Virus record (IMG/VR): IMGVR_UViG_3300030376_000661
Coordinates: 1 to 39,521 of that record
DNA: 39,521 nt
Source of the DNA: a virus
Taxonomy: Duplodnaviria; Caudoviricetes
Reading direction: 5' to 3' (one strand)
The notes beneath the pieces are model-generated. The model was not told the DNA's origin and ran no database searches. It saw nothing but the letters and a program-made list of their open reading frames with translations. Shown piece after piece: positions 7,300 through 13,463 of this stretch. The position numbers were made by a program, and so were the translations under genes. Each line of letters begins with the position of its first letter. The stretch's first letter is position 1.

Positions 7300-7328
7300 T
7301 TACTAAATATATCCGTTTCTGCTATTGT
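7300..7328 (+). promoter_or_regulatory. Possible host sigma70 early promoter (extended -10 TG-n-TATTGT)
   Basis: TTACTA-N17-TATTGT with TG extension, just upstream of the structured RNA and early ORFs. Weak -35 match. Confidence 0.3.
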
Positions 7329-7354
7329 GTTTTTATGTTCAATTTTTTAATTTC

Positions 7355-7539
7355 TTACCAAGTGCTAACAGCAGTGACAGAAGGCTTGAGCTTAAGTTTT
7401 AAAAAGTTTCTGACACCCTCGGAAGCATAGAGGTCACAGCCTTGGGAAACCTTGGCAACAAAGAGTCGGACACCGCAACAGTGAGCCAACAGGTGAGCGA
7501 GTCGGTCTAGTGCTTCAGCGTCATTGCTTGAGCCAGTAA
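7355..7539 (+). ncRNA. Putative multi-stem structured ncRNA, family unassigned
   Basis: GC-rich island without a credible ORF. Closing helix AGCAGTGAC(7370-78)/GTCATTGCT(7520-28), GAAGCA(7422-27)/TGCTTC(7511-16), and a GCCttGG-GAAA-CCttGGC hairpin (7439-56). Confidence 0.55.
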
Positions 7540-7550
7540 CAATCAAACTA

Positions 7551-7608
7551 TGTTTGTCTCATATTATTAAATATGACTGAAGAGCTATCAGTAATAGCGA
7601 AACAAACA
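7551..7608 (+). ncRNA. Hammerhead ribozyme, type III (HHR1)
   Basis: Stem III TGTTTGT/ACAAACA, cleavage triplet GUC (C7558), stem I TCATATT/AATATGA, core CTGAAGA (7577-83), stem II GCTAT/ATAGC, GAAA (7599-7602). Confidence 0.9.
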
Positions 7609-7623
7609 GGAGTCTTTTATATA

Positions 7624-7788
7624 ATGAAGATATCTAAAAAAGTCTCTAAAATGCAGAACGCTGAAAGTCTGGCAAAGTTTAAAGACAGCCAAGCCAAGGC
7701 AGAACATTTTAGACTTTATAATAAAGAGACTGACAAAGCCAAAAAGATTAAAATGTTGGCTGAAGCAGTTAAAGAGGGTTGGCTGTAA
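7624..7788 (+). CDS. Early hypothetical protein, 54 aa, basic
   Basis: AGGAG SD at 7608-12 favours ATG 7624 (MKISKKVSK...) over 7573, which lies inside the ribozyme. Confidence 0.65.
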   Translation: MKISKKVSKMQNAESLAKFKDSQAKAEHFRLYNKETDKAKKIKMLAEAVKEGWL

Positions 7789-7826
7789 CATTTATAATTT
7801 GTTACGGTTGCCAAACATTAGAGCAC

Positions 7827-7985
7827 ATGTTCAACGAGATACAAATTAATAAAATTGGTTTTGTATCTGGTGGGCGTGAGCTGTTAGACTCGCAAGAGTC
7901 TATTTTTGTTGAGTCTTTAGAAGATGAGCTCACACTAGAGCAGAAACTAGAGCTTCACAAAAAGAAATATTTTGCGAGATATTAA
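7827..7985 (+). CDS. Early hypothetical protein
   Basis: In-frame ATG 7827 of tracked ORF 7779-7985; weak SD. Confidence 0.45.
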   Translation: MFNEIQINKIGFVSGGRELLDSQESIFVESLEDELTLEQKLELHKKKYFARY

Positions 7986-7998
7986 ACTTAACATGTAT

Positions 7999-8021
7999 AG
8001 GCGGTTGATTTTTAGCCGCCT
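7999..8021 (+). terminator. GC-rich hairpin (terminator or processing/stability element)
   Basis: AGGCGGTTGA-TTT-TTAGCCGCCT 10-bp stem in an intergenic gap; poor U-tract. Confidence 0.45.
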
Positions 8022-8067
8022 TGCATTTAAACTAAAATAAACAAACTAACAAATAGGAGTCTATAAC

Positions 8068-8148
8068 ATGTCAATTAAATTAGCTTTTTTCAATATAGCT
8101 GTTTTATTATATGGTTATATAATGCTATCAATATTAGGAGTTTTATAA
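8068..8148 (+). CDS. 26-aa hydrophobic peptide
   Basis: MSIKLAFFNIAVLLYGYIMLSILGVL*; strong TAGGAG SD. Confidence 0.6.
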   Translation: MSIKLAFFNIAVLLYGYIMLSILGVL

Positions 8149-8149
8149 T

Positions 8150-8233
8150 ATGATTGGTATATTTTTAACAATTGGAATACTTATTATAGGAATTATTGCT
8201 ATAATGGGTATGAAGTCAACAGGAGCTTTATAA
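8150..8233 (+). CDS. 27-aa hydrophobic peptide
   Basis: MIGIFLTIGILIIGIIAIMGMKSTGAL*; TAGGAG SD inside the previous ORF end. Confidence 0.6.
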   Translation: MIGIFLTIGILIIGIIAIMGMKSTGAL

Positions 8234-8234
8234 T

Positions 8235-8387
8235 ATGAATATGAGCGAAGCAATAGACAGAATAAGAGAAGCTGTTGAATATTATGATATGGTGCATGAT
8301 ACAGGAAACCCAAAACAGACATTAAAAAACAAGGATTATGTTTGGAAGGGTTATGATAAATTAATTGAATTATGCAACAATAAATAG
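8235..8387 (+). CDS. Early hypothetical 50-aa protein
   Basis: MNMSEAIDRIREAVEYYDMVHDTGNPKQTLKNKDYVWKGYDKLIELCNNK*. AGGAG SD. Its TAG stop supplies the first base of HHR2. Confidence 0.65.
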   Translation: MNMSEAIDRIREAVEYYDMVHDTGNPKQTLKNKDYVWKGYDKLIELCNNK

Positions 8388-8445
8388 AGCGAAACAGGGC
8401 GGAGCTTTTGCCCTGTCTTAAGGTTAAGCCTTAACTGATGAGCTC
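8387..8445 (+). ncRNA. Hammerhead ribozyme, type II (HHR2)
   Basis: GAGC-GAAA-stem III ACAGGGC/GCCCTGT-C8417-stem I TTAAGG/CCTTAA-CTGATGA-GCTC. All core nucleotides canonical. Confidence 0.93.
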
Positions 8446-8483
8446 AAAGCAATTCAGAAATTAAACAAATAGGAGTCTAAAAA

Positions 8484-8870
8484 ATGAGAAGTTATCCAAT
8501 ATGGGTTGATACTCATAACAACGCTTATAGTAATTCGGCGGCAAAGTCTCAAGGTATTAGAGACTATTCACAAAGTCGGATTTATGTTGGCACAAGTGCC
8601 GCCAATTCTTATCAATTCGGTGATTATAGTATAAGTCATAATGACAACGGCAAAGAAAAAAACTATAATTTCTATGTTGACGGTGAGCTAGTTAAGACTG
8701 CAACATATAACAAGTATAAGAAAAAAATGGAGTCTAAAAACTATATGAGCGAAGAGTCATTAAAAGAAAAATACTTTAAAAAGTGGAAAAAAGAAGAGGA
8801 AGCCAAAGAGGAAGCGTTCAGGAATGAGCGATACGCTGAACGATTAAGAGTCAACGGCTATCGTGATTAA
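8484..8870 (+). CDS. Early hypothetical protein (128 aa) flanked by two hammerheads
   Basis: TAGGAG SD. Beta-rich N-terminal part, charged helical C-terminal part. No family recognised. Confidence 0.8.
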   Translation: MRSYPIWVDTHNNAYSNSAAKSQGIRDYSQSRIYVGTSAANSYQFGDYSISHNDNGKEKNYNFYVDGELVKTATYNKYKKKMESKNYMSEESLKEKYFKKWKKEEEAKEEAFRNERYAERLRVNGYRD

Positions 8871-8886
8871 TAATAATAAACACAAA

Positions 8887-8945
8887 GAGCGAAACAGGGC
8901 GGAGCTTCCGCCTTGTCTGAAGGTCATGCCTTCACTGATGAGCTC
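8887..8945 (+). ncRNA. Hammerhead ribozyme, type II (HHR3)
   Basis: GAGC-GAAA-stem III ACAGGGCGG/CCGCCTTGT-C8917-stem I TGAAGG/CCTTCA-CTGATGA-GCTC. Compensatory changes relative to HHR2. Confidence 0.93.
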
Positions 8946-8980
8946 AATATTTTTGGGTCATGCTTTGCATTTTAATCAGC

Positions 8981-9143
8981 TTATGTTGTATTGTTGCCTA
9001 GTAAGGTAGATACGAGAACGGCTTACAACATAATTAATAGAGCTAATGACTCTATCGGAGATAGGCGGCTATAATTAGCCTTGGACACTATGCGAGTTAT
9101 TCGTTAATCAATCAGGTGTTGGCTTCCTGATACCGCCTACTCC
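8981..9143 (+). ncRNA. Putative structured RNA elements downstream of HHR3
   Basis: 10-bp stem TTATGTTGTA/TACAACATAA (8981-9033); ATAGAG/CTCTAT hairpin; GGAG-A-TAGGCGG/CCGCCTA-CTCC (9057-9143) closing a multi-branch junction. Confidence 0.5.
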
Positions 9144-9248
9144 ATTAAATGAGCTGAGCTTAGCTTCTAGCGTGATTATCAAACTTTTATAGTATTGACT
9201 GGAGCGTGGAGCTGAGCTTAGCTCTTAACAAACTAACAAAAAGGATAT

Positions 9249-9335: not shown

Positions 9336-9402
9336 TCAACAAAGAGATGGAGCTGAGCTTAGCTTGGCTCTGTCTTTACAAACAAACAAAGGAGTAAAAA
9401 AT

Positions 9403-10157: not shown

Positions 10158-10964
10158 ATGAAAACAATAAAAGAAATAAAAGACTCACTATCTTGGGAAA
10201 CTTCTCAGGATAGTAGAGCTGAGCTTTGCTTAAATTTTTTTGGAGCTGAGCTTAGTCCAAAAGATATACACGAAGAGAATATTGAAGACTTAACTGCACA
10301 TTTAAAGAAGCGTGGAATTAAGGGTTCAACAATTAACAGGTATCTTGCGAGTGTAAGTAAGATATTAAAATATGCTTATCAAAGACCTAATGTCTACCAG
10401 ATGAATAGAGTTCCGCACATAGTATGGCAGGAAGAGTCTAAAGCTAGACTAAGATTTATGACACCAGAAGAAGAGCAGACAATGATTAAGATTCTAAGCA
10501 AGAGTCCATATCTGAGTCTATTTTTATTTCTGTTGGATACAGGCGTTAGACTTGGTGAAGCGTTGTCATTTAAAAAAGATGCAATTCAAAAATTAGATGG
10601 TAAATACTTTATTGTATTATATGCAGATGAGACTAAAAATAGTACAACGAGGAGTGTACCTTTGACTAGACGTTGTGTATCTTTATTAAAAAAATCAGGT
10701 GATTTTAGTCATTTAGATTATAGCATGGCTGAGCGTGTATGGACTAAATTACGTTTAGACATGGGCTTAGCTAGTGATAAACAATTTGTTATTCACTGCT
10801 TACGTCATACTTGTGCTTCAAGATTAGCTCAATCAGGTAAAGTAGAATTACACTTTATTAAAGAATGGTTGGGTCATAAGTCTTACAATATGACGCTTAG
10901 GTATGCCCATTTAATGCCTAAAAATCTACTAAAAGCTGTCTCAATATTGGAAGACTACGAGTAA
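10158..10964 (+). CDS. int: Tyrosine recombinase / integrase
   Basis: Catalytic set: DTGVRLGE (R), ETKN (K), HCLRH (HxxR), WLGH, LRYAH (Y). 268 aa, no obvious arm-binding domain. Confidence 0.95.
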   Translation: MKTIKEIKDSLSWETSQDSRAELCLNFFGAELSPKDIHEENIEDLTAHLKKRGIKGSTINRYLASVSKILKYAYQRPNVYQMNRVPHIVWQEESKARLRFMTPEEEQTMIKILSKSPYLSLFLFLLDTGVRLGEALSFKKDAIQKLDGKYFIVLYADETKNSTTRSVPLTRRCVSLLKKSGDFSHLDYSMAERVWTKLRLDMGLASDKQFVIHCLRHTCASRLAQSGKVELHFIKEWLGHKSYNMTLRYAHLMPKNLLKAVSILEDYE

Positions 10965-11015: not shown

Positions 11016-13463
11016 TTGACCAAGATATTAGAAATAATGCCTACTTTCCCAGACCAAGAGGCTAACGAAAAAGACATGGCTTTGTCAGGGACAGTAAGAA
11101 CGAATAAAAGACTCAATAGTCATATTGACCGAGAAGAAGAGAGTGTTACCAGTTACGGTAAAGTAATGGTAGCCAACACAATCAGACCTTTAGCAATGCA
11201 CATAGGTGACTGGATAAAACGTACATCTGAACGTACTGTATGTAAACCACCTATTGCTTTCACTAAATTATGTGAAGTTGAACCTGAGATATTGGCTTTG
11301 ATAACTGGTAAACATATAATCAATACAATCACACAATATAAACCATTAACTGCTACATGTATTAGTCTAGGTGGTAAAGTTGAGACTGAAATAGCTTTAA
11401 AGAATTTCAGATATTTAAACCCAGAGTTATACGACACAGTTAAAAAAGATTTAGACAAAAGGTCTTGGAATTATACTTATAAGCGTAGAAAACTTAGAGA
11501 GAGTGCTAAAAGAGACACTATTATGTCTTGGGAAGAATGGACTACTCCAACTAAACTACACGTAGGTTTAAGACTCGTAGAGCTTATGATTGAGTCTACT
11601 GGTATGATTGAGTTGGGTGTAGAAACTATTAAACACAAAAAAGCTAAGATTATTAAACAGACTCAGAAGACTAGAGAATGGATTAAAAATAGAAATGCTT
11701 TTAATGAATTACTTAATCCTGATTACATGATGACTGTAATGCCCCCTAAAATGTGGTCAACAGTTCATGGTGGCGGTTATTGGACTAAGGAATTACCAGA
11801 GTTAGATTTAGTTAAACAAAAGAATAAATTGTTTGCTAGAGAATTAGCTAACTTTGAAATGCCTAAAGTATACAGGGCGGTAAACGCAATGCAGTCAACC
11901 GCATATAAAATAAATAATTATATTTTAGGTGTTATGGCTGAGGCTTGGGACAGAGGACTGGCTATCGGTGGTATGCCACCAATTAAAAATCTTACAGTTC
12001 CTAACAAGCCTCACGACATTAAAGAAAATAAAGAGTCAAGACGTAAGTGGAAAAAAGAAGCAGTTATAGTCCACACAGAAAATGCTCGTATGTTCTCTAA
12101 AAGAATGTTGTATGCAAAGATATTGTATCTTGGTGATAAATTTAAAACTTATGCCACAGTATACTTTCCATTACAATTTGATTTCAGAGGAAGAGCGTAT
12201 GCCGTTCCTGCCTTTTTAAATTATCAATCTATTAATGGTGCTAAAGCATTGTTGTCGTTTGCACATGGTAAACCTATCACTGAAGAGAACAAAGGTGATT
12301 TTTGGTTAGCAGTTCATGGTGCGAATATGTATGGCAATGATAAAGTCTCATTAGAAGATAGAGTTAAATGGGTTGAAGATAATGAAGACTGGATACTTAA
12401 ATGTGTTGAAGACCCATTCACAAATAGACAATGGGAAGACGCAAGTAATGCTTTTCAATTCTTAGCGTGGGCTGAGGAGTGGAAAAGATTTAAAGCTGAA
12501 GGTTATGGCTTTGTATCTAACATTGTTATTAATGTTGATGGCTCTTGTAATGGATTACAAATTTATTCATTAATGTTAAGAGACAAAAAAGCAGGTGAGT
12601 TAGTCAATTTATTACCTAGTGATAAACCTAAAGACATTTATCAATTAGTTGCAAATTCTGTAATAGAGAAACTAAAAGAACATGCGGTTGAAGGAAGACC
12701 GTATGCACAACAATGGCTTGATTATGGAGTGAAGCGTTCAACGACTAAAAGAAGTATTATGACTATCTGTTATGGAAGTACCAGATATTCTTGTACGGAC
12801 TTTGTTGTTGAAGACTTAACAAAACGTAAAGATAAGGGAGAAGAACACCCTTTTATTAATGATATGTTTAAACCATGTTCATACTTAGCAAGTATAATAT
12901 GGGATAGCATTGGTGACAATTTACAATCAGCACGTACTGGAATGAAATTTTTACAGGACATTGCTCGTATTGTTGCTAAAGAACAGTTGCCTATACACTG
13001 GGTTACGCCTGTTGGCTTTCCAGTATATCAGTCATACCCTGAGATGAAGTCTAAAAGAGTTAAGGCTATGTTAATGGGTGAAGTTATAAAGCCTCGTATA
13101 AATACTGAGACTGACTTAACTGACAAATTGCGAATGAGTAACGGAGTAGCACCTAATCTGGTTCACTCGGTAGACTCCGCCGCAATGATTGAGACTGTGA
13201 ATGTTGCATTAGATAATGGTATTACCAATTTCTGTAACGTACACGACTCATTCGGAACTACTGCGGCTGACGTAGAAGTTCTAAACACAAGTCTAAGAGA
13301 AGCGTTTATAAAACTATTTACTGAAAATGATATATTAGAGAATTTCAGAAATGACGTTTTAAAACAATTACCTGAAAACTTGAAAGCTAAATTACCTGAA
13401 GTTCCTCAAAAAGGTGATTTAGATATAAATGAATTGAGGAAAAGCAGGTTCTTCTTTGCATAA
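11016..13463 (+). CDS. T7-like single-subunit DNA-directed RNA polymerase (gp1)
   Basis: DFRGRAY, DGSCNGLQ, RSTTKRSIMTICYG, APNLVHSVD, VHDSFGT, C-terminal FFFA. TTG start with TAGGAG SD. Confidence 0.98.
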   Translation: MTKILEIMPTFPDQEANEKDMALSGTVRTNKRLNSHIDREEESVTSYGKVMVANTIRPLAMHIGDWIKRTSERTVCKPPIAFTKLCEVEPEILALITGKHIINTITQYKPLTATCISLGGKVETEIALKNFRYLNPELYDTVKKDLDKRSWNYTYKRRKLRESAKRDTIMSWEEWTTPTKLHVGLRLVELMIESTGMIELGVETIKHKKAKIIKQTQKTREWIKNRNAFNELLNPDYMMTVMPPKMWSTVHGGGYWTKELPELDLVKQKNKLFARELANFEMPKVYRAVNAMQSTAYKINNYILGVMAEAWDRGLAIGGMPPIKNLTVPNKPHDIKENKESRRKWKKEAVIVHTENARMFSKRMLYAKILYLGDKFKTYATVYFPLQFDFRGRAYAVPAFLNYQSINGAKALLSFAHGKPITEENKGDFWLAVHGANMYGNDKVSLEDRVKWVEDNEDWILKCVEDPFTNRQWEDASNAFQFLAWAEEWKRFKAEGYGFVSNIVINVDGSCNGLQIYSLMLRDKKAGELVNLLPSDKPKDIYQLVANSVIEKLKEHAVEGRPYAQQWLDYGVKRSTTKRSIMTICYGSTRYSCTDFVVEDLTKRKDKGEEHPFINDMFKPCSYLASIIWDSIGDNLQSARTGMKFLQDIARIVAKEQLPIHWVTPVGFPVYQSYPEMKSKRVKAMLMGEVIKPRINTETDLTDKLRMSNGVAPNLVHSVDSAAMIETVNVALDNGITNFCNVHDSFGTTAADVEVLNTSLREAFIKLFTENDILENFRNDVLKQLPENLKAKLPEVPQKGDLDINELRKSRFFFA

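What the first reader, a model, noticed from the sequence alone, without database searches (positions are those of the whole stretch)
7551..8945. Early transcript punctuated by three self-cleaving ribozymes of two topologies
Seen: HHR1 (type III, cut after C7558), HHR2 and HHR3 all sit at gene boundaries on the coding strand. HHR2 begins in the stop codon of ORF 8235-8387 and HHR3 lies 16 nt after the next stop. They would split the early RNA into an upstream ncRNA, an 859-nt piece with five small ORFs, a 500-nt piece and a downstream piece leading to the integrase. No complete hammerhead was noticed elsewhere in the 39 kb. Established: T7 cuts its early polycistronic RNA at host RNase III sites, and 5'-OH ends are poor RNase E substrates. 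Inference: this phage uses host-independent, ribozyme-based processing and stabilisation of early mRNAs, possibly also relevant to prophage-state expression.
Basis: partly seen in the sequence, partly recalled or inferred. Interest (0 to 1): 0.85.

Follow-up and report, generated by a model that had tools for sequence, protein, structure and literature searches.

The report
Hammerheads punctuate pelagiphage early transcript
Three hammerhead motifs (RNAs predicted to cut themselves) sit between the first genes of a T7-like virus that likely infects the ocean bacterium SAR11, and likely chop its early message into hairpin-capped pieces; such clusters have been known since 2011, but close relatives carry a long hairpin, likely cut by a host enzyme, in exactly the same slot, which makes their job testable.

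Summary
A descriptor scan finds exactly three hammerheads in 39.5 kb (type III cut after C7558; type II after C8417 and C8917), all on the coding strand; none this strong in 150 shuffles. The phage is Pelagivirus-like (RNA polymerase 78% to HTVC168P). Relatives hold 86 distinct hammerheads of all three topologies, with invariant cores and covarying stems, wedged between stop codons and ribosome-binding sites; 11 of 12 cultured close relatives have them. Likely job: cut the early message into pieces that start with a hairpin. 'Host-independent' is overstated: the window keeps long stems at other junctions, and some relatives (including cultured Eistla) replace HHR1 with a ~20-bp stem, likely an RNase III site. 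A prophage role is not supported: integrase-less relatives carry the most. 5'-OH alone may not protect, since RNase J occurs in 59 of 61 sampled Alphaproteobacteria. Also found: a covarying leader RNA released by HHR1, and a tRNA-acceptor-like element after HHR3. Clustered prophage hammerheads were published in 2011, and this scan found the arrangement and the swap before on other DNA. No cleavage or expression data were obtained. New member of a known kind.

The parts
7300..7328 (+). Candidate host sigma70 promoter (TTACTA-17-TATTGT); low confidence
   Evidence: Read from the sequence; some relatives show TTGACA near this place in the leader alignment; not reported by the consensus scan. Inferred.
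7335..7558 (+). Structured non-coding leader RNA, predicted 5' product of HHR1; helices 7409-7414/7465-7470 and 7416-7420/7430-7434; start inferred
   Evidence: Conserved at 79% in HTVC142P and HTVC031P; 12 sequences of the window's type: 97.7% of cells paired, 6 of 11 pairs with two-sided changes; no Rfam match.
7551..7608 (+). HHR1, type III hammerhead, predicted cut after C7558
   Evidence: family of 28 distinct type III copies.
7624..7788 (+). First early ORF, 54 aa, no PHROG; ribosome-binding site abuts HHR1 stem III
   Evidence: homologues anchor the junction test.
7827..7985 (+). Early ORF, 52 aa, homologue in HTVC121P
7988..8030 (+). 19-bp bulged hairpin at a gene junction; candidate RNase III site or barrier hairpin
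   Evidence: Fold z -3.6; function inferred.
8068..8387 (+). Three small ORFs (26, 27, 50 aa); with HHR2 they are missing at this place in L009, L004 and L016
8387..8445 (+). HHR2, type II hammerhead, predicted cut after C8417
8484..8870 (+). 128-aa early ORF, no PHROG, alone on the predicted 500-nt piece
8887..8945 (+). HHR3, type II hammerhead, predicted cut after C8917
   Evidence: same junction in L024, L009, L025.
9037..9143 (+). Hairpin 9037-9055 plus tRNA-acceptor-like stem 9057-9143 (GGAG...CTCC; followed by ACCA in most relatives, ATTA here)
   Evidence: not a tRNA by ARAGORN. Function untested.
9151..9224 (+). Long stem (about 30 bp with internal loops) before ORF 9249; its 3' arm can refold into a 7-bp hairpin; candidate RNase III site
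   Evidence: z -4.7 and -4.95; refolding. Inferred.
9343..9377 (+). 16-bp hairpin before ORF 9403; candidate processing or barrier hairpin
   Evidence: z -3.4.
10158..10964 (+). Tyrosine integrase
   Evidence: phrog_1, E 2.4e-44.
11016..13463 (+). T7-like RNA polymerase, 78% to HTVC168P; marks the end of the early cassette

Best explanation
Three intact hammerhead motifs sit at gene junctions of the early operon of a Pelagivirus-like phage and likely cut the long early message as it is made, giving pieces that would each begin with a hairpin set 50-70 nt before a ribosome-binding site, the job that T7 leaves to host RNase III. Shown: motifs, positions, covariation, junction geometry, and the swap with long stems in relatives. 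Inferred: transcription from a host promoter near 7300, cleavage in vivo, RNase III action on the stems, and the benefit, which is likely separate half-lives and translation rates for small, fast-exchanged early genes. In type II and III the downstream piece keeps stem I as a 5' hairpin; in type II and I the upstream piece keeps stem III as a 3' hairpin; many type I downstream pieces can refold into a new 5' hairpin. Cutting HHR1 is also predicted to open the first gene's ribosome-loading region and to release the leader RNA. The ribozyme and the RNase III-type stem are likely interchangeable junction cassettes, and this phage likely uses both.
For: Motif reality. Selection for catalysis: in 86 distinct copies (38 I, 20 II, 28 III) the core is always CUGANGA and the site GUH; pairs the descriptor did not require stay paired with several pair types (type II stem I pairs 5 and 6: 20 of 20; type III pairs 5 and 6: 28 of 28; type I stem III pairs 5-7: 38 of 38); U1.7 is invariant in 48 of 48 type II and III copies, a residue tied to fast cleavage (PMC11875169, passages). 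Placement: cut-to-ATG at most 100 nt in 36 of 38 type I, 24 of 28 type III, 12 of 20 type II; upstream stop within 40 nt in 30 of 38 type I and 15 of 20 type II. Strand: all 61 of 61 multi-hammerhead loci have them on one strand. Prevalence: 12 of 16 IMG/VR loci with a complete early region; 11 of 12 cultured records with polymerase at least 64% identical, 0 of 6 more distant pelagiphages (one weak 4/3/4 coding hit), 0 in T7. Product ends: 5' pairing 0.69/0.92/0.94 against 0.50/0.53/0.46 in controls. Ribosome region more open after cutting in 18 of 22 type III. Swap: L007, L025, L341, Eistla carry a 19-22-bp stem at the HHR1 junction, L007/L025 with the same flanks as hammerhead-bearing L009; the stem's 3' arm refolds into GRTTAAC-N4-GTTAAYC and the same stem type stands before the A2 gene of T5-like phages. 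Precedent: triple clusters cut in vitro and in E. coli (PMC3088659).
Against: No cleavage, RNA-end or expression data for this phage. Hammerheads are not essential at any junction: HTVC105P and L007 have none. The either/or test is only moderate: before the 54-aa gene, 40 of 54 junctions have a hammerhead, and 7 of the other 14 have a stem of 18 bp or more, against 17 of 70 shuffles; after the 128-aa gene 9 of 24 have a hammerhead and 5 of the other 15 a long stem, against 13 of 75 shuffles; several junctions have neither. The 5' hairpin of types II and III follows from topology and is not independent evidence. No predicted gain in ribosome access for type I (9 more open, 9 less, of 34). HHR3 and four close copies lie 277-330 nt from the next start. 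RNase III action on the stems is inferred from length and likeness only; copies are related, so counts are not independent events.
Confidence: 0.62

Rival explanations
1. The ribozymes cut, but in order to shorten the life of early messages: new 5'-OH ends feed RNase J, giving a brief pulse of early (possibly host-toxic) proteins.
For: RNase J-family gene in 59 of 61 sampled Alphaproteobacteria; S. meliloti has one (PMC6121014, passages); decay of the glmS 3' product by RNase J1 is recalled.
Against: Downstream pieces begin with paired ends in all three topologies, including type I where it is not forced by topology (32 of 38 above control); cuts spare the ribosome-binding site. RNase J was not shown in a named Pelagibacter genome.
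Confidence: 0.12
2. The main product is non-coding RNA: HHR1 matures the 3' end of the structured leader and HHR3 the 5' end of the 8918-9240 structured piece, which act in trans or during genome entry; mRNA splitting is secondary.
For: Leader covariation; in the window's leader type the 3' end of the cut leader can refold (pairing 0.66-0.96 in six examples); tRNA-acceptor-like element with ACCA in 13 of 15 contexts after HHR3.
Against: Most hammerheads lie between two protein genes; over all 26 type III copies the 3' refolding is weak (0.63 against 0.54); leader folding energies are not exceptional (z about 0); the window's own copy lacks CCA.
Confidence: 0.12
3. The motifs serve mainly as modular joints: short shared sequences through which small early genes are gained and lost by recombination, with cutting making each module self-contained.
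For: HHR2 and HHR3 are 53 of 60 identical; HHR2 and three small ORFs are missing at this place in L009, L004, L016; flanking genes vary (also noted in PMC3088659).
Against: Compensatory changes keep structure, not sequence; three topologies with unlike stems coexist in one genome. It can add to the main reading rather than replace it.
Confidence: 0.08
4. The ribozymes serve the prophage state (insulating or tuning integrase expression).
For: Integrase follows downstream; attP lies between integrase and polymerase in this group, so the cassette stays joined to integrase in a prophage (bioRxiv 10.1101/410191, passages); prophage clusters near integrases in PMC3088659.
Against: Integrase-less Eistla and HTVC168P carry 3 each and integrase-less IMG/VR loci up to 5; 0 of 12 distant terminase loci from named genomes had any, four of them with an integrase match.
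Confidence: 0.04
5. Inactive relics or chance matches.
For: Below Rfam gathering scores; absent from some relatives.
Against: 0 strong hits in 150 shuffles; invariant cores with covarying stems.
Confidence: 0.02

Closest known systems
Clustered hammerheads flanking prophage genes (Perreault et al. 2011, PMC3088659: triple arrays of Agrobacterium tumefaciens, Azorhizobium caulinodans, Clostridium scindens)
   Same: Several hammerheads of mixed type flank single genes or short blocks near an integrase; the A. tumefaciens array is annotated tail, ardA, marR, integrase; processing into gene-length mRNAs was proposed and cleavage shown in vitro and in E. coli (part 1 of the main section and passages read).
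   Different: Here a marine T7-like clade with cultured members, including integrase-less ones; no clear loop I-tail pseudoknot of four or more pairs was established, and U1.7 is invariant; an alternative long stem fills the same slot. Whether the A. tumefaciens prophage is T7-like was not tested.
T7 early-region RNase III sites (R0.3-R1.3; R1.1 described in PMC6121014, passages; the rest recalled)
   Same: Processing signals at junctions of a host-transcribed early operon that ends in the phage RNA polymerase, the first one ahead of the first gene.
   Different: T7 has no hammerhead; RNase III leaves 5'-phosphate ends and needs a host enzyme, hammerheads leave 5'-OH and cyclic phosphate (established chemistry).
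HHphage of haloviruses HF1/HF2 (PMC3088659, passage)
   Same: Hammerhead just ahead of the first gene of an early polycistronic transcript of a lytic virus; mapped 5' end within 3 nt of the cut.
   Different: Single variant ribozyme in an archaeal virus, 13 nt before the start codon.
Rfam hammerhead clan CL00010 (Hammerhead_3 RF00008, HH9 RF02275, HH10 RF02277)
   Same: Same core and three-stem junction; a relative's HHR1 scores 38.9 bits on RF00008.
   Different: The window's copies stay far below gathering scores; the two type II copies are not matched at all.

Membership tests
Hammerhead ribozyme | Core C3 U4 G5 A6 N7 G8 A9, G12 A13 A14, A15.1-U16.1, H17 | tested here: met
   All three complete; definition as in PMC3088659 methods passage.
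Hammerhead ribozyme | Three paired stems with no mispair next to the core | tested here: met
   7/5/7, 7/4/10, 7/4/10 bp; minimum-energy folds agree; covariation in 86 copies.
Hammerhead ribozyme | Tertiary contact between stems I and II for fast cleavage | tested here: inconclusive
   U1.7 invariant in 48 of 48 type II/III; CAG in loop II of 24 of 28 type III; A after stem II in 18 of 20 type II. The contact itself is inferred.
Hammerhead ribozyme | Site-specific self-cleavage giving 2',3'-cyclic phosphate and 5'-OH | not testable with these tools
   No RNA data for this phage.
Hammerhead ribozyme (Rfam families) | Score above a family's gathering threshold | tested here: not met
   Best 18.7 bits against 52; lowers 'member of that Rfam family', not 'is a hammerhead'.
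Clustered prophage hammerheads (Perreault 2011) | Two or more same-strand hammerheads flanking genes in a phage or prophage operon | tested here: met
Clustered prophage hammerheads (Perreault 2011) | Nearby integrase, prophage context | tested here: inconclusive
   Integrase present here but absent in many hammerhead-rich relatives; no integrated copy found.
T7-type RNase III processing site (the swap stems and window stems) | Long hairpin, about 20 bp with mismatches or an internal loop, at an early gene junction | tested here: met
   19-22 bp in L007, L025, L341, Eistla; 22 bp in HTVC022P, HTVC201P; about 30 bp at window 9151-9224.
T7-type RNase III processing site (the swap stems and window stems) | Cleavage by host RNase III | not testable with these tools
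   An RNase III match below the curated cut-off in one small marine alphaproteobacterial genome, G044; no named host genome reached.
Pelagivirus (HTVC019P-type Autographiviridae) | T7-like polymerase most similar to pelagiphages; integrase directly upstream of it | tested here: met
   Top 17 hits 63.6-78%, 16 cultured on Pelagibacter and one fosmid; gene order as in HTVC019P. Host is inferred; no formal genus assignment was run.
tRNA | Cloverleaf for 9037-9147 | tested here: not met
   ARAGORN 0 genes; only an acceptor-like stem.

The most novel reading that the evidence does not exclude
The early operon of these SAR11 phages is built from interchangeable RNA-processing cassettes (hammerheads of three topologies, RNase III stems with a self-refolding product hairpin, and a CCA-ended acceptor mimic for RNase P), and the first cut releases an undescribed, covarying ~220-nt non-coding RNA that is the very first phage product and acts on the host.
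Probability: 0.2. Interest if true: 0.8.

Novelty: new member of a known kind. Interest (0 to 1): 0.5.

Why it matters
The purpose of phage hammerheads is still open (Weinberg et al. 2019, PMC6765202, passage). Here they sit in cultured phages of the most abundant marine bacteria (HTVC031P 4, HTVC168P 3, HTVC109P 3, Eistla 3), with natural controls: relatives that have a long stem, or nothing, at the same junction. One RNA-end mapping experiment on Eistla, which carries both devices, would show whether a ribozyme and a host nuclease do one job. The leader RNA and the acceptor-like element are further uncatalogued RNAs in the same operon.

Tried and rejected
Expression: no RNA holder listed; the one added metatranscriptome had 0 contigs on the region; uninformative. 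Prophage copies in named genomes: none with the integrase; 14 terminase loci, two of them pelagiphage-like contigs in unrelated bins with hammerheads, the other 12 without. A hammerhead-like text at about 7917-7950 inside the 52-aa ORF (Rfam HH10, E 5.6) was rejected as a fourth ribozyme: it lacks C3-U4, has an extra A, and the HTVC121P homologue codes the same peptide without the likeness. attP between HHR3 and integrase: rejected, attP lies after the integrase in this group. Other ribozyme classes in the early region, the leader or four swap loci: no Rfam match; comparisons by eye with pistol, twister, HDV, RNase P and ZTP consensus (recalled) did not fit. One alignment of all leaders gave no consensus fold; only sub-groups did. 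The 14 sequences of alignment A3 were picked from 79 type III contexts because they showed the helix, so one search is biased; the 12 of A4 were picked by sequence type, a subset of that type. RNase J, E and III in a named Pelagibacter genome: not reached; only RNase E/G SAR11_0731 is documented (PMC5436854 supplement rows). One search timed out and was rerun in compact form. My strict descriptor misses variants (stem III mismatch in L009 and L025, long stem II inserts in HTVC121P), so counts are lower bounds. Paper searches for prior reports in pelagiphages or T7-like early regions found no such paper in the open library; subscription journals and bioRxiv supplements were not searchable, and Dataset S1 of PMC3088659, which may hold marine sequences of this kind, was not read.
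Full report
Observation. A descriptor for types I, II and III, run on both strands of the window, finds three hits: type III cut after C7558 (stems I/II/III 7/5/7 bp) and type II cut after C8417 and C8917 (7/4/10 each). A looser setting adds one 3/3/3 hit inside a gene. In 150 block-wise dinucleotide shuffles the mean was 0.02 loose hits and no strong hit. Each motif's lowest-energy fold is the hammerhead fold. Rfam shows only a weak HH9 match on HHR1. HHR2 starts in the stop codon of ORF 8235-8387, HHR3 16 nt after the stop at 8870, and the pieces are 859 and 500 nt. The first gene starts at 7624, with GGAG directly after HHR1 stem III.

The phage. The RNA polymerase is 63.6-78% identical to its 17 best hits, 16 cultured Pelagibacter phages and one fosmid; integrase precedes it as in HTVC019P. 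The host is therefore likely SAR11 (inferred). The region lies between the terminase/lysin end and the polymerase, the place of T7's host-transcribed early genes (T7 record). The 11 small early ORFs scanned have no PHROG match.

Conservation. Among 80 IMG/VR polymerase loci, 16 reach back to the terminase; 12 of these have strict hits, 2-5 each, and a thirteenth (L025) has a variant with a stem III mismatch. All hits lie upstream of the polymerase on its strand, except two weak 5/3/5 hits. Of 12 cultured records with polymerase at least 64% identical, 11 have hammerheads in the early region (HTVC031P 4; HTVC168P, HTVC109P, Eistla 3; HTVC142P, HTVC019P 2; five with 1; HTVC105P none). Six more distant pelagiphages have none there, nor have T7, LUZ100 or the two parts of TRX32-1 read; roseophage CRP-125 has one type III copy. 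In 86 distinct copies the core and GUH site never vary outside the allowed positions, and pairs that the descriptor did not ask for stay paired through several pair types. U1.7 is present in 48 of 48 type II and III copies; that residue makes a tertiary contact tied to fast cleavage (PMC11875169, passages). The copies are related by descent, so these are counts of sequences, not events. A type II pattern scan gave 84 viral loci; 83 hold a descriptor hit, 61 hold several, and all 61 have them on one strand; some are GC-rich phages with 5-10 or more copies, and 0 of 5 such contigs tested encode a T7-like polymerase.

Anatomy. Cuts lie at most 100 nt before a start codon in 36 of 38 type I, 24 of 28 type III and 12 of 20 type II copies, and the motif begins within 40 nt of an upstream stop in 30 of 38 type I and 15 of 20 type II. 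Between ribozyme and start lies an A/C-rich spacer and a Shine-Dalgarno sequence. The downstream piece is predicted to begin paired: by topology for types II and III, and for type I often through a second hairpin whose arms change together (TGTTAC/GTAAC, TATTGC/GCAATA, TGTTGC/GCAAC; 32 of 38 above control). For type III, cutting is predicted to open the ribosome region in 18 of 22 copies (window 0.41 to 0.52); type I shows no such gain.

The swap. Earlier notes of this scan reported this arrangement on other genomes and proposed that hammerheads alternate with RNase III stems. I tested it at this window's junctions. L007 and L025 (polymerase 92%) keep the flanks of hammerhead-bearing L009 but hold a 19-20-bp stem in place of HHR1; cultured Eistla has the same stem with compensatory changes; L341 has it as a plain 21-bp hairpin after a window-type leader; HTVC105P has the same closing arms. 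The stem's 3' arm overlaps a small hairpin, GRTTAAC-N4-GTTAAYC, which would cap the downstream piece after a cut, the same design as the type I products. Of 14 distinct contexts from a scan for that hairpin, 9 have the long stem, several of them in T5-like phages ahead of gene A2. After the 128-aa gene, L007, L011 and L005 carry a 30-bp stem with an AAGGTC/GACCTT part like T7 hairpins folded from the T7 record (site labels recalled). The systematic count is only moderate: before the 54-aa gene 40 of 54 junctions have a hammerhead and 7 of the other 14 a stem of 18 bp or more (17 of 70 shuffles; 2 of the 40); after the 128-aa gene 9 of 24 have a hammerhead and 5 of the other 15 a long stem (13 of 75 shuffles). 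The window itself keeps long stems at 7988-8030, 9151-9224 and 9343-9377, each followed by the same kind of spacer and ribosome site. So this phage likely uses both devices and is not independent of host processing. RNase III action is inferred.

Stability. P. ubique has a short RNase E/G (PMC5436854, supplement rows). An RNase J-family gene was found in 59 of 61 sampled Alphaproteobacteria (16 over the curated cut-off; the tally includes one unpublished genome, G054, on which the claim does not depend). I could not reach a named Pelagibacter genome. RNase J attacks 5'-OH ends (recalled), so the hairpin, more than the hydroxyl, is the likely protector.

Prophage link. attP lies between integrase and polymerase in this group (bioRxiv 10.1101/410191, passages; the word ribozyme does not occur in it), so the cassette would stay intact in a prophage. 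But Eistla and HTVC168P have no annotated integrase and three ribozymes each, and integrase-less loci carry up to five. A prophage-specific role is unlikely.

Non-coding pieces. The ~220-nt leader before HHR1 is conserved in several variants. In 12 sequences of the window's type two helices are 97.7% paired with 6 of 11 pairs changing on both sides, above 500 shuffles and all slid controls; a related variant has an 8-bp helix with 6 of 8 such pairs, in sequences chosen for showing it. Folding energies are unremarkable and Rfam has no match. After HHR3 lies a covarying hairpin and a GGAG...CTCC stem whose inside varies from about 7 to 70 nt and which ends in ACCA in 13 of 15 distinct contexts, though not in the window; a wider scan gave ACCA in 5 of 8 closed and 0 of 92 unclosed matches. 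An RNase P site or tRNA decoy is a guess; shared descent could explain the ACCA.

What is known. Perreault et al. 2011 (PMC3088659; part 1 of the main section and passages) described natural type II hammerheads, mixed clusters flanking prophage genes near integrases, the idea of processing into gene-length mRNAs, cleavage of triple arrays in vitro and in E. coli, and a haloviral early transcript starting at a hammerhead. Weinberg et al. 2019 (PMC6765202, one passage) call the function unresolved. Six searches found no paper on pelagiphage hammerheads in the open library.

Verdict. Real, conserved, very likely active ribozymes (activity about 0.9, inferred). Best mechanism: T7-style punctuation of the early message by cassettes that are either self-cutting or host-cut (0.62). 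New member of a known kind; interest 0.5, earned by testability in cultured phages with natural swap controls and by the uncatalogued leader RNA.

Noticed in passing
window 7335-7558 and type III leaders in many loci (alignments A3, A4): Uncatalogued structured leader RNA with covarying helices, an invariant GG-N3-4-CC junction and a conserved CATA-ended 9-nt loop in the window's variant; no Rfam match.
   Followed up: partly
window 9037-9147; L312, L314-L318, L094, L099, L114, L275: Hairpin plus tRNA-acceptor-like stem ending in ACCA in 13 of 15 contexts (ATTA in the window); inside varies from about 7 to 70 nt.
   Followed up: partly
window 6969, 10962, 13470, 23948: TAAAGTTCCCATA (0-2 mismatches) before the leader, before and just after the RNA polymerase gene and near the structural genes; candidate phage promoter (6 matches against 2.0 expected, 3 of 100 shuffles reach 6). 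The 6969 copy would let phage polymerase read the ribozyme cassette.
   Followed up: partly
window 9151, 9209, 9350: Three copies of GAGCTGAGCTTAGCT form the arms of two junction stems; could also be DNA operator sites.
   Followed up: partly
L331, L336, L337, L339, L346; T5-like phage records: The same GTGTTAA...TTAACAT stem with overlapping product hairpin stands before gene A2 in T5-like phages of Salmonella and E. coli, where RNase III cutting could be tested easily.
   Followed up: partly
L104/L105, L102/L134, L111-L113, L160, L126: Phages without a T7-like polymerase match, mostly GC-rich, carry arrays of 3 to about 11 same-strand type II hammerheads within a few kb.
   Followed up: no
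L225/L226 (roseophage CRP-125, record 38176): A type III leader hammerhead with the same CAGCA loop II as the pelagiphage copies, although the polymerase is only 37% identical.
   Followed up: no
L205:668 (HTVC121P), L298:6192, L031:3943: Hammerheads with long inserts in stem II, missed by short-loop descriptors.
   Followed up: partly
L050, L060, L071, L165, L166, L168, L314, L318: Recurring motif ACTAGACGGCG near early junctions of relatives, absent from this window's junctions; possibly an operator or promoter.
   Followed up: no
type I copies: Type I copies have A at position 1.7 (35 of 38) and U opening loop II (30 of 38), the reverse of types II and III; possibly a flipped tertiary contact.
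   Followed up: no
L298, L299: Pelagiphage-like contigs with hammerheads sit inside genome bins titled Winogradskyella and Neomarinimicrobiota; probably misbinned.
   Followed up: no
window 7885-7902: Terminator-like hairpin with a T run inside the 52-aa ORF; if used, it would thin the early transcript before HHR2.
   Followed up: no
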